From Bacillota bacterium (lineage in GTDB: Bacteria; Bacillota; DTU065), in NCBI GenBank assembly GCA_018435125.1, contig JAHDNZ010000036.1:31014-95013 (forward strand): a DNA stretch of 64,000 nucleotides, written 5' to 3'. Below, one piece after another: positions 10,986-56,985 of the stretch. The notes under the pieces were generated by a model. That model was given only the letters and a program-made list of their open reading frames with translations. It was not told where the DNA came from and ran no database searches. How positions within the stretch are numbered: the stretch's first letter is position 1; the number at the start of each line of letters is the position of its first letter. The translations under genes and the position numbers were made by a program.

Positions 10986-11025
10986 CCCCTGCTAGAAGTG
11001 CAGGGGTATTTGTTATTTATTTATT
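10986..11025. terminator. Bidirectional Rho-independent terminator
   Basis: CCCCTGC tagaagt GCAGGGG hairpin (10986-11006) with a T-rich tract on the plus side and TTCTTTTT on the minus side. Lies between convergent units. Confidence 0.7.
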
Positions 11026-15273: not shown

Positions 15274-16411
15274 AAGGTTCGCCATCTAAAAATACACTGT
15301 AAAGGTTTTGATTTGCCATTTGCCAGGTTACTATATCATCATCTAGCTGCAGTTCGCCTTTTTCGGCAATCGAATAGGTTTTTCCTGACAACCTTCGCAA
15401 AAATCGCTCTAGATCATTTCTTTCCAGTGTTAATTTGCTAGACTCTCTTGCCCCAACAACCTTGATCATTTCCGAGATTAGCTCAGAGAGAGGACGTTTG
15501 GTAACCGCAACAATCTCTGCCAGTAAAAGACCAAGCCAAAGCCCATCTCCTACACCTAAATGGGGTCTATAGATAATCTCGTCGCCTACAAAAAAATCTG
15601 CCTCTTTTTCTACATCAAGACCTGCTCTTTCTGCCACACGATCAAAAAAGCGTGACCTATCCCAGGCTCTGGCTACACTTTTTAAACTTCCCTGTTCCTT
15701 AAGATAGCGAGCTATTAGAGCTGCTACAACTTCAACCTTTAGAACCTCCCCGGTGTCAGCGACAAATTCAGCCTTTGTACCTAAACTATTAAGTTTTAGG
15801 CCTAAATCAGCTCGTAAACGCAAGACTGATTCTCCTACTGTATTTATAGATATATCTCCATCTGAGCGAACTCGCCATAGACCTTTAAAAGTTATTATCT
15901 GTGAGAGTAAACTAAACAATTTAGCATCTTCCAGTCCACCCAAAGCTAAAAAAATCGACCCTAGCTTATCAGCTGCAGTTTCTCGACGCAGATGCCTAAT
16001 ATACTCTCTTTGTACATCTAAACGCATAGTTTTGCCACGTTTTCTTCTTTCCAAGCGTTTGATTGAAAAAGTGCCTTCAACATAACTTCCGGTTGTAGTT
16101 AAAAAAGTATAACTATTATCTTCTACATAACATGCTGAAGCACTAAGTCTTCTTGCCATAAGAGAGAGTTCTGGCAACAAACATTCTCCGGTTTGGGCTA
16201 CATCAAAACCGTTTGCCAGCAAAAGATCTACAGCTTGCAAAGCATAAACAGGAACCCCAATACTCTTGCTAGGGTCTTTATAACCGACAAGAGCTAATCC
16301 ACTTTGGGTTTTTTCTTTAAGGTAATCGGCCAAGTGTCCCCTTACCATAGGTGTATCATCTACAAGCTTTCCACTTTTAACCAAGTAGCCGTCTTTTACA
16401 GCCTCGTTCAC
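15239..16411 (-). CDS. Hypothetical protein with weak alpha-D-phosphohexomutase-like features (divergent active-site loops)
   Basis: GTG start with an AGGAGG RBS. Its start region overlaps the stop of the upstream CotS-like gene (TAATGTG). RLSASACYVE resembles the TASHNP loop with HNP lost. RSDGDISI resembles the DGDGDR metal loop. The 3' end overlaps the convergent gene by 35 nt. Confidence 0.3.
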   Translation of the reverse strand: MNEAVKDGYLVKSGKLVDDTPMVRGHLADYLKEKTQSGLALVGYKDPSKSIGVPVYALQAVDLLLANGFDVAQTGECLLPELSLMARRLSASACYVEDNSYTFLTTTGSYVEGTFSIKRLERRKRGKTMRLDVQREYIRHLRRETAADKLGSIFLALGGLEDAKLFSLLSQIITFKGLWRVRSDGDISINTVGESVLRLRADLGLKLNSLGTKAEFVADTGEVLKVEVVAALIARYLKEQGSLKSVARAWDRSRFFDRVAERAGLDVEKEADFFVGDEIIYRPHLGVGDGLWLGLLLAEIVAVTKRPLSELISEMIKVVGARESSKLTLERNDLERFLRRLSGKTYSIAEKGELQLDDDIVTWQMANQNLYSVFLDGEPSRLHSWQEMLP

Positions 16412-16412
16412 A

Positions 16413-17456
16413 TTACCACCTCCTAGTAGGTAGCTTAGGGAAAGGTTTCCAGGCTAGGGTTTCTTTAGGTTTGGTTTTTTCATCCACTGCAAGTTTTTTT
16501 TCACTTGCTTCTAATTCAGAATCTACACTAGTGGCATCATTAAAAGCTTCTGGTGCCTCCCCTTGGTAGCTTATTTCTTCTGGGCAAGGCATAAGCGCAT
16601 CAAGCGAACTAGTTTCAATTTCTTCCGGTTTACTAAGTGTCACAGATTCATTCTCGGTAACACTACTTTTTGCAGGTAAGATACTTTGTGTTTCTAAGTA
16701 TTCACTTACAGGTACACTAAGCTCACTTACCGGCAAATTGCTATATTCCTGCGTTGCTATAAGAGGCCATAGCATTTCCATTAACTCCTGTAACTTTTCC
16801 AAAGATGGCTCAACAGTGTCCTTTTTTGGTCCTATTTGTCCTAAAAGAATAGCACTATCCCAAATTAATTGTTCAGCCTGGACTAACTCCGTAGTGTTTA
16901 CAGGCAAGACCTCCTTATATTTTTGCAACACAAATTCTCTCGTTTTTTCATTGGCGCAATCGTAGAGAAGATGGGCTAAACTTAAGAGAGGATTTTCTAC
17001 CCGCAGATTCTCAAAAGCTCCCAGAGTCAATTCTCCGTATCTACCTACATATAAAGAATCGGGCATAATGTGAATCGAAAGCACATTACCATGAATCTCA
17101 AAAAGTGCAAGCTTATGGAGTCTGGCTAGCAATTTAGCTGCACGTTCCAAATCGAGCAAATTGGTTAAATCCAGAGCTCTTCCTTGAGGTTGATCGACAA
17201 GATAATAATAATTATCTAAAAGATAACCATTATCTGCTCCTTTATAAGGCAAAACCACCTTTACTAAGCCTGTTTTTGCAAGTTGAAGAGCTCGCTTTTG
17301 AGCCTCGTTAAAATCGCCTTTTTCCCAGGTTTTAAGTAAACGATTGCCACGTGATGTCTCCCATAAATTGCCTTCATATCTATAGACTTCAACTTGCCAG
17401 TAGGCTGCTGCCTTGCTTACCTCGTTATAGAGACGCAATTCCTCTGCAAAGTTCAT
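16413..17456 (-). CDS. CotS-family (spore-coat kinase-like, phosphotransferase fold) protein
   Basis: GGGAGGAAGG RBS. N-terminal YWQVEVYRYEGNLWE and a kinase-like core with an HxD-type region IHGNVLSIHIMPD, as in CotS/YutH-like proteins. Confidence 0.45.
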   Translation of the reverse strand: MNFAEELRLYNEVSKAAAYWQVEVYRYEGNLWETSRGNRLLKTWEKGDFNEAQKRALQLAKTGLVKVVLPYKGADNGYLLDNYYYLVDQPQGRALDLTNLLDLERAAKLLARLHKLALFEIHGNVLSIHIMPDSLYVGRYGELTLGAFENLRVENPLLSLAHLLYDCANEKTREFVLQKYKEVLPVNTTELVQAEQLIWDSAILLGQIGPKKDTVEPSLEKLQELMEMLWPLIATQEYSNLPVSELSVPVSEYLETQSILPAKSSVTENESVTLSKPEEIETSSLDALMPCPEEISYQGEAPEAFNDATSVDSELEASEKKLAVDEKTKPKETLAWKPFPKLPTRRW

Positions 17457-17576: not shown

Positions 17577-18335
17577 TTACTTTTTGATGCTTTGCCTTAG
17601 AATCTCTCTTTTGGCAATATTTAAAAATTGAGTATTTGTAGGACAACAATTACTGGCTAAACTAGTAGGAAGTATCGAAAGAATATTCCTACTATTTGTC
17701 TTCCAGGCAGAATGCAATGCGCTACGGATAGCAGCTTCTACATTAACAGGTGAAGTATGATATTTTTTAGCTAAATTAGGATAAAGAGACTTAGTTAGTC
17801 CATCTATAAGATAAGCTTTGTTGCTTAATATTAAAAGCAAAGCTTCTTTGAGATAACTGTGGCCTTTTAACTGACTCTTAATCCCTATGTTTTTCAAGAA
17901 CTCTTCTACGCAGTATGTTAGTGTATGATCATCGACTACTATACCTATCAGACTTTTATCAAGGACAATCTCTTCTTTAAAGGCACAAACCTCTCTGATA
18001 GTTTTTTCTAAGGCAGTTAAATAAAAGGGCTTTACTAAACAATAGCTAGCACCCTTTTTTATAGCTGTTTGTAAAATTTCTTCTTTGGAAAAAGCAGTGA
18101 TTACTAAAACCTTAGGTAGTTCGCTGCTTAAAGTATCCAATACCTCTAGTCCGTCTAATATGGGTAAACCCAGATCTAGAATTAAAAGTTCCGGTCTTAG
18201 TTCTCTTACTTTTTTAACTGCTTCTCTACCATCATGACCTACCCCGATTACCTCAAAATCAGGCTGAAAGGAAAGATACTGCACCATGATGTCACAAAGA
18301 GCATGATTTTTATCAACTACTAAAATAGAGACCAT
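17577..18335 (-). CDS. spo0A: Sporulation master regulator Spo0A (receiver domain plus Spo0A_C DNA-binding domain)
   Basis: Receiver domain with conserved Asp residues (VVDKN...LILDLGLP). C-terminal Spo0A-specific motifs LKGHSYLKEAL, LTKSLYPNLAKKYHTSPVNVEAAIRSALHSAW and CPTNTQFL. Start set at ATG 18335 (AAGGGGG RBS) rather than the track's 18368. Confidence 0.8.
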   Translation of the reverse strand: MVSILVVDKNHALCDIMVQYLSFQPDFEVIGVGHDGREAVKKVRELRPELLILDLGLPILDGLEVLDTLSSELPKVLVITAFSKEEILQTAIKKGASYCLVKPFYLTALEKTIREVCAFKEEIVLDKSLIGIVVDDHTLTYCVEEFLKNIGIKSQLKGHSYLKEALLLILSNKAYLIDGLTKSLYPNLAKKYHTSPVNVEAAIRSALHSAWKTNSRNILSILPTSLASNCCPTNTQFLNIAKREILRQSIKK

Positions 18336-18385
18336 AGATAACCCCCTTAATTTGAAACTAAAGTCCAATCAGATTGTTTGAGCTG

Positions 18386-33230: not shown

Positions 33231-33826
33231 ACTACCAGCTCCCTAGACAATTGATTGTTATAAAGATAGTTGTACCACTTCTCCAAAATAACAACCTTAA
33301 TAACAAAATCTCTGGTTTCGTAAAATGGGATATCCGCTCTTTTTTCCCAGCTGCCATCCCAAGTTTCTTCATTAATCCATCTCTCTACATTGCCTCTGCC
33401 CGCATTATAAGCAGCTATAGCGGAAATTTTTCCCAAATCGTTAACTAGAGTTTTTAGATAATATGAACCTAAGCTAATATTAATAACAGGATCATATAAA
33501 GAATCTGCGGTTAGTTTGATACCTTTTACTTCGGCTAGCCAGGCAGCTGTAGATGGCATAAGCTGCATCAAGCCTACAGCTCCCTTAGGAGAGACTGCTT
33601 CCTTGCGATAATTACTCTCCACCTTAATAAGGCTGGCAATAAGATAGGGGTTAATCTCGTTTTCCTTGGCTAAAATCCAGATCTCTTCTTGATACTTTAA
33701 CGGACAAAACCTAGCCATAAAAGGTTTGTGCAAGAGAGCAAAGATAAAAACAATAATCATAAGTGCTTTTAGAAATCTCTTTAGCTTCATCTGCCCTCTC
33801 CTTTTAACTATCTTATTTTTTGGCAT
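33200..33826 (-). CDS. Lytic transglycosylase domain (SLT) protein, membrane anchored
   Basis: N-terminal TM helix. SLT catalytic motifs ES ([27 protein letters not shown]) and AYNAG. Confidence 0.75.
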
Positions 33827-34211
33827 TTTGTAATATTTCCTCAGCTAAAGAAACCAAAAGAATCTCAGCTGTAGCTTCATTTGTGGCAACCGGAATATTG
33901 TGTACATCACAAACTCTTAAAAGAGCTGAAATATCCGGTTCATGAGGCTGAGCTGTTAGCGGGTCACGTAAAAATATTACCAGATCTATCTGTCCTCCGG
34001 CAATTTTAGCCCCAATCTGTTGATCTCCACCATAGGGACCTGATAGCATTTTCTCCACCTGCAACCCAGTGTTTTCCTCTATTAACTTCCCAGTAGTACC
34101 TGTGGTAACTATTTCCATGCTTTTAAGTATGCCGACATGTTTACGCGCAAACTTTATCATCTGTGGTTTCATCCGATCGTGTGCTACTAGTGCAATTCTA
34201 ATTTGTCTCAT
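33813..34211 (-). CDS. mgsA: Methylglyoxal synthase
   Basis: IALVAHD, TTGTTG and GGDQQ motifs. Start set at ATG 34211 (GGAGGT RBS), giving a 14-nt overlap with coaE. Confidence 0.85.
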
Positions 34212-34788
34212 TTTTACCTCCAATATGCGCCAAAATCTCTTCAAGCTGTGCGATAGTCTCTGGCCACTTGCCAGAATTATCAATAATATAATCCGCTTGT
34301 CTTGCTTTTATTTCTTGAGCCATTTGAGATTGCAGGCGTTTTTTTGCATCTTCTTCAGTTACTGAGTCTCTTTCCATTATTCTTCTTAATCTAATATCGT
34401 CATCTGCTCTTACTAAGATAACTTTATCAAAACGATCTTGCCAGTTAATTTCGTATAAAAGAGGGAGCTCTACCACTACAATCTCTCTTCCTTGCATTTG
34501 TTCTATTAACTTACTCCAAATCAAGGGGTGAAGAATAGCTTCCAACTTCTTTTTTTTATGTTTGTCGCTAAAGATAATTATGCCTAATCTTTTTCGATCT
34601 AGGGAGCCATCTTCTTTGATTATCTCAGGCCCAAAAGTCTCTCTGATAATATCTAATGCTTTGGAACCTGGTTTTACCACCTCTCTGGCTAAAATATCCG
34701 TATCGATTACATAAAAGCCTTTTTTTTGCAAGTGTTTACCTATCTCTGTTTTGCCAGAACCTATATTTCCTGTAAGAGCGATTCTCAT
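34198..34788 (-). CDS. coaE: Dephospho-CoA kinase
   Basis: Walker [10 protein letters not shown], CoaE core, about 196 aa. Confidence 0.9.
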
Positions 34789-34989
34789 AATAACCCTCTA
34801 TTCCACACGTCCACGCGCTTATGCGTGGTACAAATAGTAATGATAAAATCTTTCAAGCTATTACAACAACGTTACTTTGAAGAGAGAAATACACAGCGAG
34901 ACATGTTATAGACTGCTCTTATCAATTTTATCTATTCTCTTTAGAGCAGGTTTTTACCTTTACCTTACAAAAATTGCATTGTAACTTCT

Positions 34990-35030
34990 GTAAAAAAAAA
35001 GAGTTAGGGTAATAAATACCCCAACTCTTT
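34990..35030 (-). terminator. Rho-independent terminator of lipoprotein gene 35044-36465
   Basis: On the minus strand: AGAGTTGGGGTA tttat TACCCTAACTCT followed by a T9 run. Confidence 0.75.
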
Positions 35031-35043
35031 AGCCTACTTAATT

Positions 35044-36465
35044 TTAGTAATTATAGACACTGATTTCGTCAATCTCAATACCACCATTAAATTCGATAAA
35101 TACTCCACCTTTAGTGTGGAAATAATTTGCATCTGTTTCAGTCATTTGATTTATCAAAGCGCCATTTTTGTAATATTTAAGAGTATTTCCCTGAACAACT
35201 ACAGCTGCTGTCACCCATGTACCGTCTTCAGTAAATAAGGGTTGGGATGAAGGAGGTGTAACAGGAGATGTTTTCTTAAATTTCGGGGTTTGATCGTGAC
35301 CATACCAAGTCCAATTAGCCAGATCAAAGCTACCAGTTGAGGCGTTCAAAGCATATCCATCAGCCCATACGCTGGCATTGTTTCTAACTTGAATACGTAG
35401 ACCAGCAATAACACCTTGACGAACTTCAGTTGTTCTTGCCTTAACAATTACAATAGCATCGGTAATTTCAAGATCTTTAATTTTTAGACCACTTGTATAG
35501 CTACCTTTTTCTGTAGGTTCAAAATCTCTAGTTAAAACACCATTTACTACTTTGGGAGCGGGTTTAGACATAGCCCAAGCATTTAAGTCCCAAGCTTCTT
35601 CTCCAACCCATTTGGTTAGAGTTCCAGTGAAATTGTCATAAAATAGACGCTTGTCATTAACGTCAAACTTCAACTCAGTCGCAGTACCAATTACAGCAGT
35701 CTTTGTAAAAGAATAACTATGGTCAGTACCTGCCAATAGTAGGTTAACAGCTACGTCTGCTGAACCAGCTGGCGCAATAAAACTAAGCAAACCTGCCCCA
35801 TTAGTTTTTACTGTATCCTCAAATGCGCCAAGTTTTATAGTAGCATTTATAGCAGCGTGGCCTTCGCCTTTATCATTTTTTAGTGTTAGTGATCTTTCGG
35901 CCAACTCAGCAATTGTTAATTTTTCTTCTTTGATTGTTTCTGCTGGCATATCGTAGGTGTCATTAACTGTTTTACTGAAGCCTTTATAGGTTACTTTTAA
36001 AACTTGCTCACCGGGAAGAACAACCATATAATATTTACCATCTTTATCCACAGTATTAGATACTGCACCTAGTGTTACTGAAGCCCCTACTAAAGGTTTC
36101 TCATCAGAAGTTTTTACTGTCCCAGTTAAAATAGCTAAGCCAGTAACTTTAAGAGGTTCTTTCAACTCATTAATTGCACCATTTTTGATCTCTATAGCCT
36201 GAGCTTGTGAAGATTTCCCTTGAAACTCAGCATGGACATTATACTTACCTGGTTTTAGAACAAGTGAAAATTTCCCGTCTTTATCAGCTGTTGCTACTTC
36301 TTTGTCACCAAGAAAAACTTTTGCATTTATTGGTGTTTCCCCATCACCCATAGTTACTTTTGCAATTAGTCTACCATTTTTTGCAGAGAATAGAGTACAG
36401 CCACTTAACACAATCACAGCTAGCATTAGAGACATGAAAATATAAGCCTTTTTTCTAAACTTCAT
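35044..36465 (-). CDS. Lipoprotein with tandem carboxypeptidase-regulatory-like (transthyretin-like beta-sandwich) domains and a C-terminal DUF1080/ConA-like domain
   Basis: Lipobox LSGC after the signal peptide. Repeated about 80-aa beta-sandwich modules (GKFSLVLKPGKYNVHAEF, GKYYMVVLPGEQVLKVTY). C-terminal region ends GGIEIDEISVYNY, resembling the 3-keto-disaccharide-hydrolase-like DUF1080 fold. Confidence 0.55.
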   Translation of the reverse strand: MKFRKKAYIFMSLMLAVIVLSGCTLFSAKNGRLIAKVTMGDGETPINAKVFLGDKEVATADKDGKFSLVLKPGKYNVHAEFQGKSSQAQAIEIKNGAINELKEPLKVTGLAILTGTVKTSDEKPLVGASVTLGAVSNTVDKDGKYYMVVLPGEQVLKVTYKGFSKTVNDTYDMPAETIKEEKLTIAELAERSLTLKNDKGEGHAAINATIKLGAFEDTVKTNGAGLLSFIAPAGSADVAVNLLLAGTDHSYSFTKTAVIGTATELKFDVNDKRLFYDNFTGTLTKWVGEEAWDLNAWAMSKPAPKVVNGVLTRDFEPTEKGSYTSGLKIKDLEITDAIVIVKARTTEVRQGVIAGLRIQVRNNASVWADGYALNASTGSFDLANWTWYGHDQTPKFKKTSPVTPPSSQPLFTEDGTWVTAAVVVQGNTLKYYKNGALINQMTETDANYFHTKGGVFIEFNGGIEIDEISVYNY

Positions 36466-37094
36466 CTTCTAATTGCCCCCCCTAATTTTTCTTGTTTTGA
36501 ACTTAAAATTAAGCTGTGGTATTGAATAATACCTTTGCTCTTACCCCTCTTATTTCCTCATCTTAAATGTTTTTCCTGCTTAAAAATCTTAATTTCTTAC
36601 TTAAATTGTAAAAAACACTATTTTCATCTAAACCCTCATCAGCCAAAAGACAATAGTCTTTCCATCATTTTCCTCAAAATATTATGATGTTAAAGGATTG
36701 CCTGATAATAGTTCTCCCGAAAGAACAGTTCACTTTCTTTCTATATACCCATATAAGTTAAACTTCGTTTTGTTAGATTTTATTACCACTAATCTCCCCC
36801 ATTAAACTATCATTATTCATTCAAAAAACAAAACAACCCTCACACACTTAACAATAACAATATTCTCTACACTTATATTTAAATCCTTCCTTTAAATAAA
36901 TAGAAGATAAATAACAAAAAGTCTTCGAGCTGTAACAATCTTCCAAAGATGTTTTGGCTATCAAAGCTTTTCTCCCACTAACTCTTTTATAGTTTTAACT
37001 AACTGTTTTCTTTTAGCTTCGTAATCTTTGCTGTATTCCACAAATACTTATTTGCATCAAAAAAAGCTAGGAATAACAGGAAATTACAAAGCTA

Positions 37095-37135
37095 CCCCAA
37101 GACCTAATTTACAAGTCTTCGGGGCAGTTTTTTTT
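37095..37135. terminator. Strong hairpin plus T8 terminator in the intergenic spacer (T-run on plus strand; also usable by the upstream minus-strand gene)
   Basis: CCCCAAGAC ctaatttacaa GTCTTcGGGG followed by TTTTTTTT (37128-37135). Preceded by an A-run, so bidirectional in form. Confidence 0.55.
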
Positions 37136-37279
37136 ATACTTAACTTATCTAGTTGGAAGTCTCTTTTCCGTCTAGATCACTTACAGAGTTATCGTGTTTA
37201 GAATTGATTATTTCAAAAGCACTCTGGTTTTTGTAAGAAAAATAATTTTAATCATCACCAGAGTGCTTAACACTAATTA

Positions 37280-38836
37280 TTATACGGCTGGTGCAATTTC
37301 GTCGACAAAGATATTTTTGAACTTAGTATTATTAAAACCTCTAAAGCCTAAATAGCCATCTCTATAGAGGTTATCTGTACCTGGCAGGACTGCTTTATCT
37401 AAAATAACTTCGCCATTATCTAAATTCGTAATTGTTACTTCTACAGAGTTATCTTGTTTCATAACCATTAAAATGTTTACCCATTTATCATTAGGAACAA
37501 CACAATCAGTTTGATTTTCTTTTAACGAACCTACTGTTGTGTGGCTTCTTATGGCAAATTTCCCTAATTTACTATCAACAGTAACAGCTCCATTATAATA
37601 AGCATTCGCTACTTGATGAGCAATAGACGGACTATAGCGAGCACCATATAAGACATCAACTGAATAGGCATAATGACCCGTGACACGAATATTGCTAATA
37701 AAGCGACACTCTGAAGCAGCTGTGGCAATAAACTCACCATTGTTTTCTTCCCAAGTCCCTGTTTTATAGAGATTGTCTCCGAAATCCGCAAAGCTTGTAA
37801 AGGCCCTTAAGGAAGCTAATTTAATTGTTTCTGTTTTTTTCTTAGATTCAACCGTAATTGCATTAAGGTTTCTGTTATATGCTGAGCCGATTATGGCCAC
37901 CGGTGTTTTTTTCCCTACTCCAATAAGACCCTGGAATGATCCTTCCCCTACTTTAATTAAAGCTTTACCCTCAACTTTAATTTCCTTTACTTGTACAGGT
38001 TTACCATTTTTGTCAACAACAGTTATGGTGTATAGGCCAAAATCATTAATTACATAATTTAATTCTTTTGTGAGATCAACAGCCACCTTAGTAAAGACTT
38101 GATCTAAATAACTAATACTTACATCAGCTGTATTTTCTTTAAGATACATTACAAACTTACCGTCTTCATCAGTTTCTTTTTCTGTAGTTCCTACTTTAAC
38201 TTTTGCTTTTTCTACTTTAGTTCCATCCGCAAAAGCAACTGTTCCTTTAAATTCGTTAACCTCAAGACTTATCTGTTTGGCCAATTTACCACTAGGAACA
38301 ACTAAGTCTTCGAGTTCAGACTCAATTCCCATATTCTCTGCTTTTACCTGGTAAGTACCTTTTTTCATATAAAATGCTGCCACACCTTCGGCATTAGTTT
38401 GTTTAGTATAGGTCTTGTCTCCATCAATTATTACCACATTACTTTTACCAATAGGATTACCTGATGTAGCATGCACCACAGTGGCAGTTACTCTTCCTAG
38501 AGCTTCGTCCAATATGGTTTCTTTAGTCAAATCACCAGATTTAATACCTACTTTTCTTGAAATCGAATAAGTTGAATTATCTATTAACACGATATTAGCC
38601 TTTAAAGAATACTCGCCTGGAGCTAGAACAAATTTTACAAATCCATTTTTATCAGTTGTTGCTTTAGCAGAAGTTTTCCCTAAAGTCATTGTTACTTCGA
38701 CTCCGTCAATTGCCATACCATCTTTTAATTGCATAGTTAAATTTACAGAACCGTTTTTTTTAGCAAATAAAGTACAACCTGATAATAAAACCGTAACTAC
38801 AGCCAACAAAATTAAACACTTGTTTTTCCCCTTCAC
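37280..38836 (-). CDS. Paralogous lipoprotein: carboxypeptidase-regulatory-like beta-sandwich repeats plus C-terminal DUF1080/ConA-like domain
   Basis: Lipobox LSGC. Same domain order and several shared local motifs with 35044-36465 (GEYSLKANI / GKYNVHAEF; KNIFVDEI / IEIDEI endings). Confidence 0.55.
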   Translation of the reverse strand: MKGKNKCLILLAVVTVLLSGCTLFAKKNGSVNLTMQLKDGMAIDGVEVTMTLGKTSAKATTDKNGFVKFVLAPGEYSLKANIVLIDNSTYSISRKVGIKSGDLTKETILDEALGRVTATVVHATSGNPIGKSNVVIIDGDKTYTKQTNAEGVAAFYMKKGTYQVKAENMGIESELEDLVVPSGKLAKQISLEVNEFKGTVAFADGTKVEKAKVKVGTTEKETDEDGKFVMYLKENTADVSISYLDQVFTKVAVDLTKELNYVINDFGLYTITVVDKNGKPVQVKEIKVEGKALIKVGEGSFQGLIGVGKKTPVAIIGSAYNRNLNAITVESKKKTETIKLASLRAFTSFADFGDNLYKTGTWEENNGEFIATAASECRFISNIRVTGHYAYSVDVLYGARYSPSIAHQVANAYYNGAVTVDSKLGKFAIRSHTTVGSLKENQTDCVVPNDKWVNILMVMKQDNSVEVTITNLDNGEVILDKAVLPGTDNLYRDGYLGFRGFNNTKFKNIFVDEIAPAV

Positions 38837-39485
38837 AATTCTTCCCCCTTAATAAAGAGTTAGTGAAGCAGTTTAAGAAATATGTTGTGGTGTTAGTTTG
38901 GTTTTTAAGCATACTTTATCATTTTTTTGCTATTTTTTGCTTCTATGTTTAAAATTATTTGTGAATAAAATTTTTCCTTCATAACATAGGTTCATTTTTT
39001 TATTTTTTTAGTACTTTTGTTTTCTTAAGATAGTTTTTGGCAACTATCCTATGTAAATAAAAAGAAGCTCTTTATAATTAGGTATATGTTTTGTGACAGC
39101 CAAAACAAACCCTTATTAGAAGGACCTCTCTATATCTCTAATCCAAAGCTTAAGTATTTGTAGCACTTTTGTTATCCTTGCTGGCGACACCTTATCAAAC
39201 TGAATTGTCATAGTTATTATTCTTAGAGATACTTACTGGAAACCCCCACCACTTTAGTTATTCTCGTAATGTTTATTATCAGTCTTTAGAGACAAAATAT
39301 TGTAAATAAATAGTCCTCATTTTCTGATATCGTTGTTTTGTAGTATTGTTTGTAAAGATGCTCGCAAATTTTGCATATTATACAGTAAATCATCATCGTT
39401 ACCAGTGACGATTTTACCTTGGTTGTTTTCTAATAAAGATTTTCTTTAAATTAATCTACCCCATATATGCCAACCTAACTAAAAA

Positions 39486-39513
39486 AAGACTGCAGGCATT
39501 TGCCCACAGTCTT
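39486..39513 (-). terminator. Rho-independent terminator of OMP gene
   Basis: AAGACTG...CAGTCTT hairpin 15 nt past the stop, followed on the minus strand by a T7 run. Confidence 0.75.
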
Positions 39514-39527
39514 TTGTACCTTAAGTC

Positions 39528-41375
39528 TTAGAAGCTTGCACTATAGGATACTTTCACGAAAGTATCGGCAGTGCCAGCTTTTTCAGCAAAGTTATCTGGG
39601 AATGAATATTTAGCAGCAAAACCAATACCGTTAGGTGCTTTATAACTAGCTGAAATATCCATATAAAGAGGATGTTTTCTTGTTTCCCAGCGGCCAGAAG
39701 TTGTGTTAATAGTAACACTACGTCCTTCAATATATCCGCCGTAGCGGTTATCAAAGTTTAGACCAGCACTAAGACCAATACCTTTAGCCTTTAACACATC
39801 AACTGTAGTACCTAGAGCAAGACGCTGCCAGGTCGTAAAGAAGATACCATTTTGCTGATCGCCAGCAGGAAGAATAGGATTGACTTTATTAGCATTTGCA
39901 AGCCAGTACTCTGAAGTGTAATCAACTGAAATAGGAGTATTTAAGCCAGGAACAGCTAATTTATAACCGTTGTAGTTCAAATCAACTCTGTGCCAAGTTG
40001 GCTTAACACCACTAACTAAGTCTTTATCCCAAATTAATGCGTATTTAGCAACTGCATCAGCTTTGAAAAGCTTTGTAGCGGCTGATAGATTTGCTCTAAC
40101 AGCATAAGAAGTACCAGCCGAATAATTTTGTGTTGATATGACATAGAACATCTCGTTAGGATCAGCATTATCGGCAGCAGCGAATTTGTTATCAGTTACC
40201 CATTTTCTTGAACCATCCTTTTTGTTGGTAACTGCGAATGAACTGCCAGCATCTAACTTAATGCCATTGATTGTGTAGCTTGCGCTACCATTTAGACTAT
40301 CAACTGTCTGTAGGAAATCAAGATCGATATTTTTAAACCAGTTAAAGCCATCTCTCTTAACAGCAGACCAGTTGTAGCCGCCTGAGAGAGCAACTCCAGC
40401 AACCTTAGTTGATGCTGATAGACCATACTTAATCTGACCACGATCAGCCATCAAGTTTGTTTGACGGTTTCCTCCTGCCCATCCAGCTTGTGCATAACGC
40501 CACTCTGGAGCAAAGAAAGGATGGACATCAGAAGCGGACAATGTAAAGGAAACATTTGGAATTAGCTTATCAAAAGTTGTAGAAACTCTGGCTACATAAG
40601 GTTTAGAACCTACTAATTTTCCTGCATTGTCAGTATTGACAATAACAGCACTTTCAAGATTCATGTTGCCGATTGTACCGAGTTTCTGTTTGTAAAGCGC
40701 GCGTGCGAGGTTAGTGGATTTGCCTGTAAAGACCTTGTTTTTATTACCGTCTGGGCGATCTACATTTTTGAACTCTTTTAAACCACGCACCAGAGCTAGA
40801 TCAAGGTTATAACCTTTTACAACATCGCCGGCAACCTTAACACCGAAGATAGGTCTTGACTGTGCATTTCTAGAAGCTGAAGTATCATAAGCATAAACGC
40901 CTTCAGCAGTCATTTTAGCAATCTTTAGGCCTTCAATTTTCCAACCATAGTAAGAGCCGCCATCAATATTTTCCCAAGGAGCTTCGTTTTTCTTAAAATA
41001 TTGGGCACCCCAGTCAATTGCCAAAGGTCCAATTGTGGTTGTAACTTTTTGACCATCGGTAACAAAAGGTCCTGTAATGGTTAACTTACCATAGTTGTGA
41101 CTAAAATTATTTAATTTGCCACCGTTAAGAGGATAGCTGTTATGGAACCAGTTTTCTTGGCCACCCATAGCGCCGTCCCAAACCAGCTTAAGTCCGCCTT
41201 TGTCAATGTTTATAGCACTAGTAAAAGTATACTTCATCCAGGACTCAAGGTTTCCTTCGGGAGTCCAGCGCATATCAGCAGTTAAGCTACCTGAAAATTG
41301 TAGTGGTACTACAGCAAAAGCAGAAGCTGTCAGCGCTAGAGCCACTACTAGCACCATCAAATTCTTTTTACTCAT
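39528..41375 (-). CDS. Outer-membrane beta-barrel protein (porin-like), 615 aa
   Basis: Signal peptide MSKKNLMVLVVALALTASAFA. Alternating amphipathic beta-strand composition rich in G/Y/N/S/T. C-terminal ...VSYSASF with terminal Phe, typical of BAM-dependent OMPs. No SLH motif seen. Confidence 0.55.
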   Translation of the reverse strand: MSKKNLMVLVVALALTASAFAVVPLQFSGSLTADMRWTPEGNLESWMKYTFTSAINIDKGGLKLVWDGAMGGQENWFHNSYPLNGGKLNNFSHNYGKLTITGPFVTDGQKVTTTIGPLAIDWGAQYFKKNEAPWENIDGGSYYGWKIEGLKIAKMTAEGVYAYDTSASRNAQSRPIFGVKVAGDVVKGYNLDLALVRGLKEFKNVDRPDGNKNKVFTGKSTNLARALYKQKLGTIGNMNLESAVIVNTDNAGKLVGSKPYVARVSTTFDKLIPNVSFTLSASDVHPFFAPEWRYAQAGWAGGNRQTNLMADRGQIKYGLSASTKVAGVALSGGYNWSAVKRDGFNWFKNIDLDFLQTVDSLNGSASYTINGIKLDAGSSFAVTNKKDGSRKWVTDNKFAAADNADPNEMFYVISTQNYSAGTSYAVRANLSAATKLFKADAVAKYALIWDKDLVSGVKPTWHRVDLNYNGYKLAVPGLNTPISVDYTSEYWLANANKVNPILPAGDQQNGIFFTTWQRLALGTTVDVLKAKGIGLSAGLNFDNRYGGYIEGRSVTINTTSGRWETRKHPLYMDISASYKAPNGIGFAAKYSFPDNFAEKAGTADTFVKVSYSASF

Positions 41376-41644
41376 TTTTTTTCCTCCTTAAATAACCGTG
41401 AAATAACCGAAGCATTCGTGTTTTTTTTACAAATACCTCCTAATGCAAGTTGCCGTGTTTCCTTGCAAAAGATTGCACTTGTTTCTTAAAACACACACCT
41501 GATACTTTATGACTGCAGGAGGACCCTCCTTTCCTCGTCTGATATAGCTTCAGGCCATATGTTTCGGTCTTCACCTTATTATTCATCATCTGTAAATAAA
41601 CTCCTTCTGAAATACTAACTTTTCTAACAAAAACCTGTAGAATT

Positions 41645-44164
41645 TTAAACTTTTTCCATTTCGAGCCAATTTTCCCCGACCTGAATATCTACCACAAGCT
41701 TAGTTTCTAAATTATAAGTATGGTTTAACACTTCTCTTACTAACGCACAGGTCTTTTCCAAATCCTCATCGGCTACCTCTAACACCAATTCATCGTGTAC
41801 CTGTAAAAGCATCCTCGCTTTAAGATCCCTTGTTTGCAATTCTCTATCTATCTTAAGCATAGCAAGCTTCATAATATCAGCAGCAGTTCCTTGAATTGGT
41901 GTGTTTAAGGCCATCCTCTCCGACAGGCTTCTTTTTAAAAAGTTACTGCTGTTAATATCAGGAAGGTATCTTCTTCGCCCTAGAAGAGTTGTTACATAGC
42001 CTTGTTTTTTAGCTGTTTGAATGATCTCATCCATGTATTGTTTTACCTTAGGATAACGGTTAAGATATTTTTCAATATATTTGTCCGCTTCTTTCTTACT
42101 AAGATCAGTGTTGCGAGCTAAGCCAAAACCACTAATACCATAAATAATTCCAAAATTGATGGCTTTAGCCCAACTTCTTTCTTCTTTTGTTATGCTGTCT
42201 ATATCTTTTTCTAGTACTTCGGCTGCAGTCCTCAGATGAATATCTTCATTGCGTCTGAACGTGTTTATAAGATCAGGATCTTCGGCGATATGGGCGAGTA
42301 TCCTAAGTTCAATTTGCGAATAATCGGCTGATATAAGAACAGAACCTCTCTCAGGAACAAAGCAGTGTCTTATCTTGGCACCTTCTTCAGTTCTTACAGG
42401 AATATTTTGCAGATTGGGGTTACTGCTTGAAAGTCTTCCGGTAGCTGTCACCAGCTGGTTAAAACTAGTATGAATTCTACCGGTAAGAGGGTTTATAAGA
42501 TCCTGCAGAGCATCGGTATAGGTGCTTTTTAGTTTCTGTAATTGTCTATACTCGATTACAAGCTGGGGTAAGGGATGAATGGGAGCCAACTTTTCTAAAA
42601 CCTCAGCTGAGGTTGAATAACCGGTTTTGGTTTTTTTATAAGCAGGCAAGCCGAGTTTGGCAAACAGGATCTCCCCTAGTTGCTTGGAAGAGTTAATATT
42701 AAACCTTTCGCCAGCCAGAGCAAAGATACTCTCTTCCAGCTCGTCCATCCTTAGAGAAAACTCTTTAGATAACTTAGCTAACTCCTTTTTATCAACTTTG
42801 ATACCAGTTCTCTCCATCTTTGCTAATACTTTGCTTAAAGGTAGTTCAACTTCTTTATATAAATAGCTTAGTTCTTTATCTTTAATCTCATTTTCCATTA
42901 TATCTTTTAACTTCCAAGCTACGGCAGCTCTTGCTCCCAGAGAATCATTTAAGTCCAAATTTAGGTATCTTTCAGTCAAAGCCTTAAATTCATGCGAAAA
43001 ATCCGGATCTAAAAGGTAGCCTGCAATCTCTAAATCAGAAGCAATTAATAGTTCGGGCTCTGAAAGATACAGCTCTTTGGCGCCATGGGTAAAGACACTT
43101 CTGCCTCTGACAAGCTCTAAAATATTAATGTTCTCTTCGGCAAAGAGAGTCTGGTTTTTTTTAGGCAGAGTAATATACCAGGTTTGGCTAGCAAGAAGAT
43201 AAACCTCATTTAAATCCTCCAGGAAAACTGTCTTTTCTTCTTCTAATAGCTCTGTAGTAAGTTTGTCTATGCGAGGAAGTTCTAAAACTTGAGCCTTTTT
43301 TCTTGTATCTTCCGGCAATTTCTTTAGAAAAGAAGTGAATTCCAGTCTTTGATAAAAATCCCGTAGAGGTTCAATTTCCGGTTCTTTTAATCTGGCCATC
43401 TCCAGTTTGACAGGGAGCTTAAGATCGGTCTTGATCGTTGCCAGTTCCTTACTTAAAAGGGCAATTTCTTCCTGACCGGATAGCTTTCTCGCAATACTTG
43501 GTGGCAGATTGTTTATGTTTTTTAAAACATTTTCCACACTTTCATAGTCGGCTATTAGTTTTACGGCAGTTTTATCACCAATGCCTTTAACTCCCGGAAT
43601 ATTATCAGACGGATCACCCACTAGGCCTTTATAATCAGGTACTTGCTCAGGTGTAATAGAAAAATCTTTTATAACCGTTTCTTTATCGTAAAACCTTATC
43701 TCTGAGATACCTTTTTTGGTTAATAAAACATAGCAGTTATCGTTAACTAACTGGAGCGAGTCTTTGTCCCCTGTTAAAATAAGATACTCTAGTCCCCACT
43801 CCTTAGCCATTATAGAAACAGCTCCGATGAGATCGTCAGCTTCTATTCCATCTAAAGCGATATGAGGTATTCCCAAATAATCTAGGAGTTCCTTGGTAAG
43901 ATCTAGCTGAGAAACAAGTTCATCTGGCATAGGCGGTCGTTTAGCCTTATACTCTTTATACTGCTTATGCCGAAAAGTAGGTTTCCCAGAGTCAAAGGCT
44001 ACATAAATATAATCTGGTTTATAATCGGCCAGGATCTTCTCTAACATCAGGTTAAAACCATATACAGCTCCCGTGCTTTGCCCTGTGGCAGTAGTAAAAC
44101 CAGGCAAAGCATAAAAAGCTCGATATAAGAGACTGTGTCCATCGATGGCTATCATGCGTTTCAT
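41645..44164 (-). CDS. polA: DNA polymerase I
   Basis: 839 aa. 5'-3' exonuclease N-terminus, polymerase motifs A (DYSQIELR), B (RRxAKxxNFGxxYG) and C (VHDE). Confidence 0.95.
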   Translation of the reverse strand: MKRMIAIDGHSLLYRAFYALPGFTTATGQSTGAVYGFNLMLEKILADYKPDYIYVAFDSGKPTFRHKQYKEYKAKRPPMPDELVSQLDLTKELLDYLGIPHIALDGIEADDLIGAVSIMAKEWGLEYLILTGDKDSLQLVNDNCYVLLTKKGISEIRFYDKETVIKDFSITPEQVPDYKGLVGDPSDNIPGVKGIGDKTAVKLIADYESVENVLKNINNLPPSIARKLSGQEEIALLSKELATIKTDLKLPVKLEMARLKEPEIEPLRDFYQRLEFTSFLKKLPEDTRKKAQVLELPRIDKLTTELLEEEKTVFLEDLNEVYLLASQTWYITLPKKNQTLFAEENINILELVRGRSVFTHGAKELYLSEPELLIASDLEIAGYLLDPDFSHEFKALTERYLNLDLNDSLGARAAVAWKLKDIMENEIKDKELSYLYKEVELPLSKVLAKMERTGIKVDKKELAKLSKEFSLRMDELEESIFALAGERFNINSSKQLGEILFAKLGLPAYKKTKTGYSTSAEVLEKLAPIHPLPQLVIEYRQLQKLKSTYTDALQDLINPLTGRIHTSFNQLVTATGRLSSSNPNLQNIPVRTEEGAKIRHCFVPERGSVLISADYSQIELRILAHIAEDPDLINTFRRNEDIHLRTAAEVLEKDIDSITKEERSWAKAINFGIIYGISGFGLARNTDLSKKEADKYIEKYLNRYPKVKQYMDEIIQTAKKQGYVTTLLGRRRYLPDINSSNFLKRSLSERMALNTPIQGTAADIMKLAMLKIDRELQTRDLKARMLLQVHDELVLEVADEDLEKTCALVREVLNHTYNLETKLVVDIQVGENWLEMEKV

Positions 44165-56820: not shown

Positions 56821-56985
56821 CGCCCTGAAGGAGATCCTTCAGGGCGTAAAAAGCATTTACTTTAATGCCGATCTTTCTATCATCCGGACTTTACCGTCGG
56901 TCCTGGAATTGCACCAGGTCAGCTTGCGCTCGTGGACTTTTACCACCGGCCAGGAATTTCACCTTGCCCTGAAAGATCATTTATG
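56821..56985 (-). promoter_or_regulatory. FMN riboswitch (RFN element) with downstream 11-bp expression-platform hairpin
   Basis: Minus-strand RNA reads GAUCUUUCAGGGCAAGGUGAAAUUCCUGGCCGGUGGUAAAAGUCC...CUGGUGCAAUUCCAGGACCGACGGUAAAGUCCGGAUGAUAGAAAGAUC. P1 is GAUCUUUC/GAAAGAUC (56971-56978 with 56870-56877). The core is near-identical to the B. subtilis ribD RFN consensus (GGGCAGGGUGAAAUUCCCGACCGGCGGUA...GACAGUGAAAGUCUGGAUG). The hairpin CGCCCUGAAGG-aucu-CCUUCAGGGCG (56821-56846) is followed by UUUCCUGUU and then the ribU RBS. Confidence 0.85.

What the first reader, a model, noticed from the sequence alone, without database searches (positions are those of the whole stretch)
35044..41375. Envelope locus: two paralogous beta-sandwich + DUF1080 lipoproteins and a beta-barrel OMP, each its own transcription unit with long AT-rich leaders
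Three consecutive minus-strand genes encode a 615-aa signal-peptide protein ending in ...YSASF (OMP barrel signature) and two lipobox (LSGC) proteins. Both lipoproteins have the same architecture: several transthyretin/carboxypeptidase-regulatory-like modules followed by a ConA-like DUF1080-type domain (the 3-keto-disaccharide hydrolase fold). Each gene is followed by its own strong terminator (39486-39513, 37095-37135, 34990-35030). Each is preceded by 0.7-0.8 kb of ORF-free, very AT-rich DNA. This suggests independently and possibly tightly regulated surface proteins, such as glycan capture or hydrolysis at an outer membrane, or phage-receptor/variable surface proteins. The architecture is common in Planctomycetes and Bacteroidetes but is unexpected beside spo0A.
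Basis: partly seen in the sequence, partly recalled or inferred. Interest (0 to 1): 0.6.

Follow-up and report, generated by a model that had tools for sequence, protein, structure and literature searches.

The report
Hypervariable outer-membrane protein gene island
Between two housekeeping genes of an uncultured, spore-forming but two-membraned Firmicute lies a 7-kb stretch that encodes a large outer-membrane barrel of an undescribed porin-like family and two modular lipoproteins, and close relatives carry very different versions of these genes at the same spot, as expected for cell-surface proteins under pressure from phages or other enemies.

Summary
The three minus-strand genes, their signal peptide and lipoboxes, and a strong terminator hairpin after each gene are real. 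The 615-aa protein models as a large all-beta transmembrane barrel. It has no curated family and is rare (12 profile hits among 1.84 billion cluster representatives). Distant relatives are 400-500-aa porin-like proteins in other uncultured Bacillota. Both lipoproteins carry CarboxypepD_reg-type beta-sandwich modules (3 and 4). Only lipo1 has a supported DUF1080 domain; the conserved C-terminal domain of lipo2 is unassigned. The host has Spo0A and TolC-like proteins, so it is a diderm Firmicute, and an outer-membrane protein is not anomalous. The 0.7-0.8 kb AT-rich spacers exist only upstream of the two lipoprotein genes. They show no conservation, no Rfam match and no gene remnants, so nothing supports structured leaders. 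The main new result is comparative. The whole polA-coaE interval (~41755-34790) is a replaceable island. Congeneric genomes with 87-90% identical flanks carry barrels unrecognisable by BLASTP and one or two different lipoproteins. Same-species contigs switch lipo1 allele exactly at 37215. A 19-nt element upstream of the barrel gene is conserved in all five lineages. Most likely these are surface or envelope cassettes under diversifying selection. Their function is inferred only.

The parts
34790..41755 (-). Hypervariable envelope island between the 3' end of polA and the start codon of coaE
   Evidence: blastn against the congeneric loci L019 and L022 gives 87-90% identity up to window 41773/41755 and again from 34792/34787. 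Inside the interval there is only a 65.5% match over lipo1 (L019) or nothing (L022). L018, from an independent sample, is 100% identical to the window, so this is not an assembly artefact.
41376..41644 (-). polA-OMP spacer (269 bp, GC 0.36), the upstream region of the barrel gene, with the Shine-Dalgarno sequence AAGGAGG
   Evidence: Blocks are conserved among window, L002 and L007: 23/23 GCAAGGAAACACGGCAACTTGCA and 28/31 AGGAGTTTATTTACAGATGATGAATAATAAG. No Rfam family reaches threshold.
41446..41464 (-). Conserved 19-nt element AAGGAAACnnGGnnACTTG (5-bp inverted repeat, 12-nt conserved loop) upstream of the barrel gene
   Evidence: It is invariant in all five lineages, although the surrounding spacer and the downstream gene are otherwise unalignable in L019 and L022. 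All 25 pair cells are paired, with one G-C to A-U double change in two sequences. It occurs once in the window; 19 of 100 shuffles give at least one match. Its role is unknown.
39528..41375 (-). 615-aa outer-membrane beta-barrel protein (type A allele) of an uncurated porin-like family
39484..39515 (-). Intrinsic terminator after the barrel gene
   Evidence: 14-bp stem followed by a T run. dG -20.6 kcal/mol, z -5.66. An equivalent hairpin is present in L002, L019 and L022.
38837..39527 (-). 691-bp AT-rich ORF-free spacer upstream of lipo2
   Evidence: GC 0.297 and no ORF of 60 aa or more. There is no significant blastn block against the orthologous 763-bp spacer of L002, no coding remnants and no Rfam hit. 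It is 98% identical in same-species contigs.
38935..38980 (-). Only semi-conserved block of that spacer (about 74% identity to L002 by my count), roughly 100-145 nt upstream of the lipo2 start; a candidate promoter or operator
   Evidence: MAFFT alignment columns 601-650. The identity was counted by eye and is not significant by blastn-short. This is a weak inference.
37280..38836 (-). lipo2: 518-aa lipoprotein with four CarboxypepD_reg-type beta-sandwich modules and an unassigned, conserved ~178-aa C-terminal domain
   Evidence: Lipobox LSGC. PF13620 scores 58.2 bits with 3 stretches. A module HMM finds four modules at 27-111, 113-194, 193-263 and 265-340, and also finds four in the independent L002 orthologue. 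The C-terminal domain is 79% identical to L002, against about 50% for the modules. It has no family match.
37212..37268 (-). Hairpin directly after the lipo2 stop codon; within-species recombination breakpoint at its 3' edge
   Evidence: dG -19.6, z -4.18. Similarity of L014-L017 (97.7-98.8%) ends exactly at window 37215.
37095..37135 (-). Second hairpin, terminator-like with an imperfect T tract, downstream of lipo2
   Evidence: dG -21.6, z -4.27. The consensus scan did not flag it.
36466..37279 (-). 814-bp AT-rich ORF-free spacer upstream of lipo1, specific to this allele
   Evidence: GC 0.302 and no ORF longer than 57 aa. It is unalignable to the 393-bp spacer of same-species contigs L014/L015 and to the 381-bp spacer of L002, except for a 15-mer.
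35044..36465 (-). lipo1: 473-aa lipoprotein with three beta-sandwich modules and a ConA-like DUF1080 (PF06439) domain; a strain-variable allele
   Evidence: Lipobox LSGC. PF13620 scores 61.6 bits and PF06439 37.4/40 bits. Modules lie at 29-100, 110-181 and 187-270. Same-species contigs carry a 494-aa allele with a different C-terminal domain. L019 carries a 52% identical orthologue.
34998..35030 (-). Intrinsic terminator after lipo1
   Evidence: 14-bp stem followed by T9. dG -20.2, z -6.48.

Best explanation
The interval between polA and coaE is a flexible envelope island in an uncultured, Spo0A-bearing diderm member of the Bacillota. It is built from self-contained cassettes, each with its own upstream region and its own terminator.

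- Cassette 1 encodes a large, plug-less transmembrane beta-barrel. It belongs to an uncurated porin-like superfamily restricted to a few uncultured Bacillota lineages, and it most likely acts as a diffusion or uptake channel exposed at the cell surface.
- Cassettes 2 and 3 encode paralogous lipoproteins. Each has a stalk of 3-4 transthyretin-like beta-sandwich modules carrying a distal binding domain. This domain is ConA-like DUF1080 in lipo1 and an unassigned conserved domain in lipo2.

The cassettes are exchanged or replaced by recombination between strains and species, which is why close relatives carry unrecognisably different barrels and different lipoprotein sets at the same site. The long AT-rich spacers are unconstrained joints or promoter regions that travel with the cassettes, not structured leaders.

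Shown: gene structures, fold class of the barrel, domain content, terminators, replacement pattern and breakpoints.

Inferred: surface exposure, channel function, carbohydrate binding, that phage or predator pressure drives the diversity, and that exchange rather than differential loss of paralogues produced it.
For: Diderm host: Spo0A together with two OEP/TolC-like proteins, HlyD and an ABC ATPase.

Barrel:
- Signal peptide and an aromatic C-terminal beta-signal.
- AF2 model with pLDDT 64.8, 28 antiparallel strands and no plug.
- Dyad amphipathicity is above nearly all shuffles.

Family:
- Motifs are shared along the whole length with 400-507-aa relatives.
- Two of these relatives pass the Porin_4 gathering score, at 31.5 and 28.4 bits.

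Lipoprotein architecture.

Island behaviour:
- Flanks are 87-90% identical at the DNA level in L019 and L022, and the interval is replaced.
- PolA is 88-89% and enolase 96-98% identical, yet the barrels give no BLASTP hit. L019 and L022 barrels are only 41% identical to each other.
- The L019 barrel still matches the family HMMs, at 73.5 and 65 bits.
- The more distant L002 (PolA 72%) has a barrel 53% identical to the window's, which is incongruent with the flanks.
- Lipoprotein number and order differ between lineages: 1 in L019; a DUF1080 type followed by a 517-aa type in L022.
- A within-species allele switch occurs at 37215.

Cassette autonomy: a terminator follows every gene in all variants.

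Host-like codon usage argues against recent import from an unrelated genome. The barrel leans slightly towards the glycolytic-gene pattern.
Against: - No transcript, localisation or binding data exist.
- The AF2 model is only of moderate confidence. TM-scores are 0.2-0.4, so strand number and barrel closure are uncertain.
- Adjacency of the three genes does not show that they work together, because the whole region is colinear among relatives.
- If this lineage lacks Lol, like other Terrabacteria (bioRxiv 10.1101/2021.05.31.446380), the lipoproteins would be tethered to the inner membrane and not surface-exposed. Their variability would then need another explanation.
- No phage, integrase or transposase gene is present in the island, so the exchange mechanism is presumed to be homologous recombination in the flanks.
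Confidence: 0.6

Rival explanations
1. The three proteins form one glycan capture and uptake machine, functionally like SusCD or a maltoporin-type system. The lectin-like lipoproteins bind oligosaccharides and hand them to the large barrel.
For: - Lipo1 has a ConA-like PF06439 domain.
- Distant barrel-family members lie next to MalK/MsmX-type ATPases (L009, L011) or next to a LacI regulator, a sugar-binding protein and two permeases (L012).
- A barrel gene is accompanied by at least one such lipoprotein gene in every low-GC variant.
Against: - The barrel has no TonB box, Plug or TonB_dep_Rec domain, and there is no SusD-like partner.
- The genes are separate terminated units.
- The lipoprotein set varies independently of the barrel type.
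- The high-GC relatives have the porin without such lipoproteins.
- Export of lipoproteins to the outer membrane is unproven in this phylum.
Confidence: 0.2
2. The lipoproteins are inner-membrane-anchored, periplasm-spanning stalk proteins. Three or four Ig-like modules lift a distal domain towards the peptidoglycan or the outer membrane, for example as envelope spacers or tethers. They are unrelated in function to the barrel, and the three genes merely share a recombination-prone site.
For: - Lol is reported as practically absent from Terrabacteria and LolA/B as absent from Negativicutes (PMC5007114; bioRxiv 10.1101/2021.05.31.446380).
- The mature N-terminus CTLF..K.G is conserved in the window and L002 paralogues.
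- The C-terminal domain of lipo2 is 79% conserved between lineages whose PolA is 72% identical. This is unlike a domain under immune or phage evasion.
- The barrel lacks the SLH tether of OmpM.
Against: - Lipo1 alleles differ sharply within one species, and lipo2 is absent from L019. That is unusual for a structural housekeeping tether.
- There is no known precedent and no peptidoglycan-binding domain was detected.
Confidence: 0.25
3. The differences between relatives come from differential loss and rapid divergence of ancient tandem paralogues (two barrel types, several lipoprotein types), not from lateral cassette exchange.
For: - Both barrel types belong to one superfamily.
- The lipoproteins are visibly a tandemly duplicated family.
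- No mobility genes lie in the island.
- Codon usage is host-like.
Against: - Same-species contigs that are 98% identical up to 37215 switch abruptly to a 71-72% identical or unalignable allele. This is the signature of recombination.
- The window barrel is closer to that of the more distant L002 lineage (53%) than to congeneric ones (no hit).
- No genome seen here carries both barrel types side by side.
Confidence: 0.25
4. The long AT-rich spacers are transcribed regulatory leaders (riboswitch, attenuator or sRNA target) that give tight independent control.
For: - They are the longest and most AT-rich non-coding stretches in the window.
- Long spacers (345-763 bp) recur in every variant of the island.
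Against: - There are no conserved blocks between orthologous spacers, although a 23-mer is perfectly conserved in the neighbouring polA-OMP spacer at the same divergence.
- The lipo1 spacer is 814, 393 or 381 bp depending on the allele.
- There is no Rfam match at E <= 1 beyond chance-level hits and no conserved small ORF.
Confidence: 0.1
5. The genes encode sporulation-specific envelope or spore-membrane proteins expressed from sporulation sigma-factor promoters.
For: - The host has Spo0A.
- Diderm sporulators remodel membranes during sporulation (PMC13018214, abstract only).
- The semi-conserved block upstream of lipo2 contains CATAGA/TATAGA, loosely like SigE/SigK -10 boxes (my reading).
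Against: - No sporulation family was detected in any of the three proteins.
- The promoter resemblance is weak and untested.
- The barrel has a strong Shine-Dalgarno sequence and codon usage leaning towards highly expressed genes.
Confidence: 0.05

Closest known systems
Gram-negative general and specific porins (Pfam Porin_4 clan; maltoporin-type channels)
   Same: Signal peptide, an all-beta amphipathic barrel and a C-terminal aromatic residue. Distant family members reach the Porin_4 gathering score. Three distant members neighbour sugar ABC-uptake genes, as lamB neighbours malK in E. coli (own knowledge).
   Different: The window protein itself has no Porin_4 hit. At 594 mature residues and about 28 predicted strands it is far larger than 16-18-strand porins. 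The best structural alignments are with 24-26-strand barrels such as FimD, MtrB and LptD.
OmpM, the SLH-domain porin and tether of diderm Firmicutes (PMC10628300)
   Different: There is no SLH domain or coiled-coil stalk, and strands start right after the signal peptide. It is therefore not a peptidoglycan tether of the OmpM kind.
SusC/SusD-type glycan utilisation pairs of Bacteroidota
   Same: A barrel gene next to genes for lipoproteins with carbohydrate-binding-like domains. CarboxypepD_reg modules also occur at the N-terminus of SusC (own knowledge).
   Different: There is no TonB-dependent plug and no SusD fold. The modules sit in the lipoproteins, not in the barrel. The genes are separate transcription units.
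Hypervariable porin and surface-antigen loci, and 'flexible genomic islands' for cell-surface structures flanked by conserved genes (e.g. O-antigen islands, Neisseria porB, Campylobacter porA; constant-diversity model of phage predation). Own knowledge, not tested here.
   Same: Conserved housekeeping flanks, replacement of envelope genes between close relatives, sharp recombination breakpoints and no mobility genes.
   Different: The host is a spore-forming diderm Firmicute, the barrel family is uncurated, and the variable unit includes modular lipoproteins.
DUF1080 / 3-keto-disaccharide hydrolase (PF06439) domain proteins
   Same: The C-terminal domain of lipo1 matches 160 of 187 profile positions at 40 bits. 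The orthologous domains in L019 and L022 score 31.4 and 34 bits.
   Different: Here the domain is fused to a lipobox and three transthyretin-like modules. Catalytic residues were not examined. The lipoB-type and lipo2-type C-terminal domains do not reach the family threshold.

Membership tests
Transmembrane outer-membrane beta-barrel protein | N-terminal Sec signal peptide cleaved by signal peptidase I | tested here: met
   MSKKNLMVLVVALALTASAFA|VVP, read from the translation. The feature is conserved in the homologues.
Transmembrane outer-membrane beta-barrel protein | C-terminal beta-signal: a terminal aromatic residue with alternating hydrophobic residues | tested here: met
   ..V-K-V-S-Y-S-A-S-F. 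A terminal F or W is present in all family members.
Transmembrane outer-membrane beta-barrel protein | All-beta fold with amphipathic antiparallel strands matching solved barrels | tested here: met
Transmembrane outer-membrane beta-barrel protein | Closed barrel with a defined strand number | tested here: inconclusive
   The model has moderate confidence, with 161 residues below pLDDT 50 and TM-scores of 0.2-0.4.
Pfam Porin_4 (PF13609) | Score at or above the gathering threshold (27 bits) | tested here: not met
   The window protein has no hit. Only distant relatives pass: P0016 at 31.5 bits and the L010 protein at 28.4 bits.
OmpM (SLH porin of diderm Terrabacteria) | N-terminal SLH domain and stalk preceding the barrel | tested here: not met
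   No SLH hit at E <= 1. The first strand begins at residue 25.
TonB-dependent transporter / SusC | Plug domain and TonB box | tested here: not met
   No Plug or TonB_dep_Rec hit. The model has no N-terminal globular domain.
Bacterial lipoprotein | Lipobox [LVI][ASTVI][GAS]C at the end of a signal peptide | tested here: met
   VLSGC (lipo1) and LLSGC (lipo2). The lipobox is conserved in all allelic variants. Lipidation itself cannot be tested here.
CarboxypepD_reg (PF13620) beta-sandwich | Score above the gathering threshold (32.3 bits), repeated modules | tested here: met
   61.6 bits (lipo1) and 58.2 bits (lipo2). A module HMM finds 3 and 4 copies, and finds them also in the independent L002 orthologues.
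DUF1080 / 3keto-disac_hyd (PF06439), lipo1 | Score above the gathering threshold (26.8 bits) over most of the profile | tested here: met
   37.4 bits for the whole protein and 40 bits for the isolated domain, covering profile positions 10-170 of 187.
DUF1080 / 3keto-disac_hyd (PF06439), lipo2 | Score above the gathering threshold, or profile similarity to the lipo1-type domain | tested here: not met
   No hit at E <= 10. hhalign probability is 0.1-0.2%. The only hint is a 14.6-bit sub-threshold hit in the 26%-identical L022 homologue.
Known cis-regulatory RNA (riboswitch, leader) in the long spacers | Rfam covariance-model match | tested here: not met
   No match at gathering thresholds. Only chance-level hits at E 0.05-0.2.
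Flexible genomic island for envelope genes | Conserved flanks with replaced content among close relatives, and sharp breakpoints | tested here: met
Outer-membrane or surface lipoprotein | Presence of a lipoprotein export route (Lol or other) and outer-membrane localisation | not testable with these tools
   Only 64 kb of the genome is available. The literature reports Lol as largely absent from Terrabacteria (bioRxiv 10.1101/2021.05.31.446380) but LolA as present in Halanaerobiales (PMC5007114).

The most novel reading that the evidence does not exclude
The island encodes a previously unseen kind of surface receptor complex in a spore-forming diderm Firmicute. A plug-less barrel of about 26-28 strands would have its lumen or outer face occupied by the distal domain of a modular stalk lipoprotein. 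This would require lipoproteins to reach or cross the outer membrane in a lineage thought to lack Lol. The whole complex would be swapped as promoter-to-terminator cassettes, and the invariant 19-nt element would serve as a shared regulatory or recombination anchor.
Probability: 0.12. Interest if true: 0.75.

Novelty: new variant of a known kind. Interest (0 to 1): 0.45.

Why it matters
Outer membranes of diderm Firmicutes are central to the debate on how one-membraned bacteria arose. Their protein inventory, however, is known mainly from Veillonella (OmpM, BamA, TolC).

This locus contributes four things:
- An uncurated, very rare family of large barrels without an SLH tether.
- A family of stalk-like lipoproteins whose location bears on whether Terrabacteria place lipoproteins in or beyond the outer membrane.
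- Evidence that such envelope genes sit in a recombining, strain-variable island in anaerobic-digester populations. That pattern is usually attributed to phage pressure.
- Concrete handles for testing all of this: breakpoints, allele classes and a conserved 19-nt element.

The biology is nevertheless an extension of known themes (porins, modular lipoproteins, flexible surface islands), and every functional statement is inferred.

Tried and rejected
- AF2 with only the three close homologues failed (pLDDT 32). The 11-sequence alignment was needed.
- Searching the 5.8e9-protein index with the family alignment returned nothing new.
- The first genome-contig scan found nothing. An 8-sequence alignment was too diverse for that tool. 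The second scan gave three high-GC 'Bacillota bacterium' MAGs.
- A metagenome scan with the lipo2 C-terminal domain found nothing. The scan with the barrel found only the window's own species.
- The afdb50 fold library was unavailable.
- PDB sequence searches gave nothing useful for either lipoprotein.
- hhalign of the lipo2 C-terminus against the lipo1-type domain was negative twice.
- Pseudogene remnants in the spacers: none (tblastn and tblastx).
- Small ORFs in the spacers: not conserved.
- Repeats shared between the spacers: only short chance-level matches.
- The sigma-70 promoter scan was no better than shuffles (24 found against 22.4 expected), so no promoter is claimed.
- I considered ECF-type and sporulation-type promoter readings, and a cre-like reading, of the conserved elements. 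None fitted the consensus spacing, so I dropped them.
- Recent foreign origin of the genes: codon usage is host-like.
- The taxonomic class could not be fixed. Records say only 'Firmicutes/Bacillota bacterium'. Placement near the Limnochordia is a guess based on habitat, on the diderm trait and on the high-GC relatives (PMC11456536).

Full report
**What is in the sequence**

Three minus-strand ORFs occupy 39528-41375 (615 aa), 37280-38836 (518 aa, GTG start) and 35044-36465 (473 aa).
- The first has a classical signal peptide (..SAFA|VVP) and ends ..VKVSYSASF.
- The other two have LSGC lipoboxes.

Hairpins followed by T-rich tracts lie after each gene.

| Position | dG (kcal/mol) | z-score |
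|---|---|---|
| 39515-39484 | -20.6 | -5.7 |
| 37268-37212 | -19.6 | -4.2 |
| 37135-37095 | -21.6 | -4.3 |
| 35030-34998 | -20.2 | -6.5 |

The spacers upstream of the two lipoprotein genes are 691 and 814 bp long with GC 0.30, and they hold no ORF longer than 57 aa. They are the longest and most AT-rich true non-coding stretches of the window; the median gap is 130 bp, all gaps together have GC 0.36, and coding sequence has GC 0.39. The barrel gene has only 269 bp upstream, at GC 0.36.

**Host and neighbourhood**

The locus sits in a run of housekeeping genes. On one side are polA, a YkuD transpeptidase, secG, enolase and the glycolytic genes. On the other are coaE, mgsA, an SLT transglycosylase and an NFACT protein.

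Spo0A lies at 17577-18368. An HlyD-ABC pump with two OEP/TolC-like proteins lies at 444-4923. A Firmicute with Spo0A and TolC-like outer-membrane factors is a diderm Firmicute. Three such clades are known: Negativicutes, Halanaerobiales and Limnochordia (PMC5007114; bioRxiv 10.1101/2021.05.31.446380; PMC11456536). An outer-membrane protein is therefore expected, not anomalous.

Related contigs are labelled only 'Firmicutes/Bacillota bacterium' and come from digester and fermentation metagenomes. I could not determine the class.

**The 615-aa protein**

- It has no Pfam or NCBIfam match.
- It has only two close homologues besides itself among 5.8 billion proteins. A profile search of 1.84 billion cluster representatives gave 12 hits.
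- The distant hits are 400-507-aa proteins with a signal peptide and a terminal F. They share motifs along the whole length: GP..GGQ.VTTT.GDL..DYSP, F.P.YRD and APNG. Two of them pass the Porin_4 gathering score.
- With the 11-sequence alignment, AF2 gave a moderately confident model (pLDDT 64.8, pTM 0.57). It consists of 28 antiparallel strands with no plug or helical domain.
- The predicted strands show dyad hydrophobic alternation of 2.03, against 1.40 +/- 0.19 in shuffles. The protein has no cysteine and no hydrophobic helix.

I conclude that it is an outer-membrane barrel of an uncurated, porin-related superfamily, larger than classical porins and without the SLH tether of OmpM. Strand number and barrel closure remain uncertain.

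**The lipoproteins**

Both contain CarboxypepD_reg modules. A module HMM built from the window copies finds three modules in lipo1 and four in lipo2. It also finds the same numbers in the independent L002 orthologues. The two proteins align only over the signal peptide and modules (28% identity, E 4e-11).

The C-terminal domain of lipo1 is a PF06439 (DUF1080, ConA-like) domain, scoring 40 bits when scanned alone.

The C-terminal 178 residues of lipo2 are much better conserved than its modules: 79% against about 50% identity to L002. This domain matches no Pfam family and no PDB sequence. It shows no profile similarity to the lipo1-type domain. The only hint is a 14.6-bit sub-threshold PF06439 hit in a 26%-identical homologue. 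By eye its pattern is compatible with a jelly-roll (W..G.F....GYLGFRG.....F.N..V). That is a lead, not a result.

**The spacers**

At the divergence between the window and L002, the polA-OMP spacer keeps a perfect 23-mer and a 28/31 block. The two long spacers keep nothing significant. They contain no gene remnants, no conserved small ORF, and no Rfam match beyond chance.

One stretch of about 46 nt, roughly 100-145 nt upstream of lipo2, is about 74% identical to L002 by my count. It is a candidate promoter region. If so, the leader would be about 100 nt, not 700. Nothing supports long structured leaders.

**The unexpected part: comparison with relatives**

The same place in the genome was recovered from five lineages. 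The percentages in the first four data columns are identities to the window.

| Lineage | Flank DNA | PolA | Enolase | Barrel | Lipoprotein genes |
|---|---|---|---|---|---|
| Window; L018 is 100% identical, from an independent sample | - | - | - | 615 aa | lipo2 (518 aa), then lipo1 (473 aa, DUF1080) |
| L014-L017, same species | 97.7-98.8% through the barrel's 3' part, IG2 and lipo2 | not covered | not covered | same allele | lipo2 (99%), then a 393-bp spacer and a 494-aa allele |
| L019, congeneric | 87% | 88% | 96% | 638 aa | one, 466 aa (DUF1080, 52% to lipo1) |
| L022/L023, congeneric | 89-90% | 89% | 98% | 597 aa | 371 aa (DUF1080), then 517 aa (26% to lipo2) |
| L002 group, more distant | about 68-72% | 72% | 89% | 619 aa (53%) | 519 aa (60% to lipo2), then 485/495 aa (lipoB type) |

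Further points:
- In L014-L017, similarity to the window stops exactly at window 37215, the 3' edge of the hairpin after lipo2. The modules of the 494-aa allele are 61% identical to lipo1. Its C-terminal domain is of another type, the one also found in L002.
- DNA similarity of L019 and L022 to the window ends at 41773/41755 and resumes at 34792/34787, which is the coaE start codon.
- The L019 and L022 barrels give no BLASTP hit to the window barrel and are only 41% identical to each other.
- The L019 barrel nevertheless matches the family HMMs, including one built without the window clade (73.5 and 65 bits).

The barrel tree is therefore incongruent with the flanks, lipoprotein content varies, and a recombination breakpoint is visible within a species. 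Every cassette in every variant keeps its own terminator.

This is the behaviour of a flexible genomic island for envelope proteins. Such islands are commonly ascribed to selection by phages or other agents that recognise the cell surface (general knowledge, not tested here). Differential loss of ancient tandem paralogues could explain part of the pattern. It cannot easily explain the within-species switch.

**A conserved element**

Upstream of the barrel gene, the 19-mer AAGGAAACnnGGnnACTTG (window 41464-41446, minus strand) is invariant in all five lineages. It is conserved even where the surrounding spacer and the gene itself are unalignable. Its distance to the start codon varies from about 65 to about 280 nt.

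It forms a 5-bp inverted repeat. All 25 pair cells are paired, and there is one G-C to A-U double change. That support is weak, because the two changed sequences may share a single event. The element occurs once in the window. It could be an operator, a 5'-UTR hairpin, or an anchor for exchange. I cannot tell which.

**Function**

Indirect hints point to carbohydrate uptake.
- Lipo1 carries a lectin-like domain.
- Distant family members sit next to a MalK-type ATPase (L009, L011) or next to a LacI regulator, a binding protein and two permeases (L012).

Codon usage of the barrel leans slightly towards that of the glycolytic genes, whereas the lipoproteins resemble ordinary genes. Whether the lipoproteins reach the outer membrane is open. 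Lol is reported as largely absent from Terrabacteria (bioRxiv 10.1101/2021.05.31.446380), although Halanaerobiales have LolA (PMC5007114). If the lipoproteins are anchored in the inner membrane, their 3-4 modules would make a periplasm-spanning stalk.

**Verdict**

- The 'long leader' reading is unsupported.
- The 'beta-barrel OMP' and 'variable surface protein' readings are supported.
- The DUF1080 assignment holds for one lipoprotein only.

The thing itself is a new variant of known kinds: a porin-like barrel, modular lipoproteins and a flexible surface island, in an understudied host. Interest is moderate.

Noticed in passing
window 13547-15273 (+): Two adjacent genes match the PARIS anti-phage system: AriA (AAA_15 ATPase, 83 bits in PADLOC) and AriB (DUF4435, 37 bits). 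Neighbouring ORFs at 11021-11767 and 12243-12881 have no family.
   Followed up: partly
window 444-4923 (+): HlyD-family adaptor, ABC ATPase and two consecutive OEP/TolC-like proteins (358 and 426 aa, each with one OEP hit). They serve as evidence for an outer membrane. It is unclear why there are two short TolC-like genes instead of one two-repeat protein.
   Followed up: partly
L009 8318-11227; L011 5905-9271; L012 6001-12288: High-GC (56-69%) relatives of the barrel family lie next to sugar-type ABC uptake genes. These are a MalK/MsmX-like ATPase in L009 and L011, and a LacI regulator, a binding protein and two permeases in L012. The arrangement is reminiscent of malK-lamB.
   Followed up: partly
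window 33813-34788 (-); L001-L003 around 16205-17179: coaE and mgsA are separate, overlapping ORFs in the window, L019 and L022. In the L002 group they are called as one 324-aa CoaE-MGS fusion.
   Followed up: no
window 36476-36482 (-), also 38846-38850: The Shine-Dalgarno regions of the lipoprotein genes are G runs (G7 before lipo1, G5 before lipo2, G5-G6 in orthologues). A G7 tract could in principle slip and vary expression. No length variation was looked for.
   Followed up: no
mature N-termini of all lipoprotein alleles (window 36390-36400 and 38765-38775 regions): The residues after the lipidated Cys are conserved as C-T-L-F-(S/A)-x-K-x-G in window and L002 paralogues, and as C-N-L-F in L022. 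This may be a sorting signal or simply common descent.
   Followed up: no
P0006: A 7545-aa protein matched the barrel profile in 127 separate stretches (496 bits). It looks like a giant repetitive protein or an artefact built from barrel-like repeats. It was not examined.
   Followed up: no
window 56868-56980 (-); 6981-7054 (+); 7752-8150 (-): An FMN riboswitch (115 bits) lies upstream of a minus-strand gene. A tRNA gene is followed by a phage-lysozyme-family gene, possibly a prophage remnant or an integration site.
   Followed up: no
L019 12863-14779 and L022 13104-14897: The type B barrels carry an insertion of about 100 aa in the middle (e.g. ..YVISAHGTKNALIQTEDFAIGKKVNV..) that looks globular rather than strand-like. 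It has no Pfam match.
   Followed up: no
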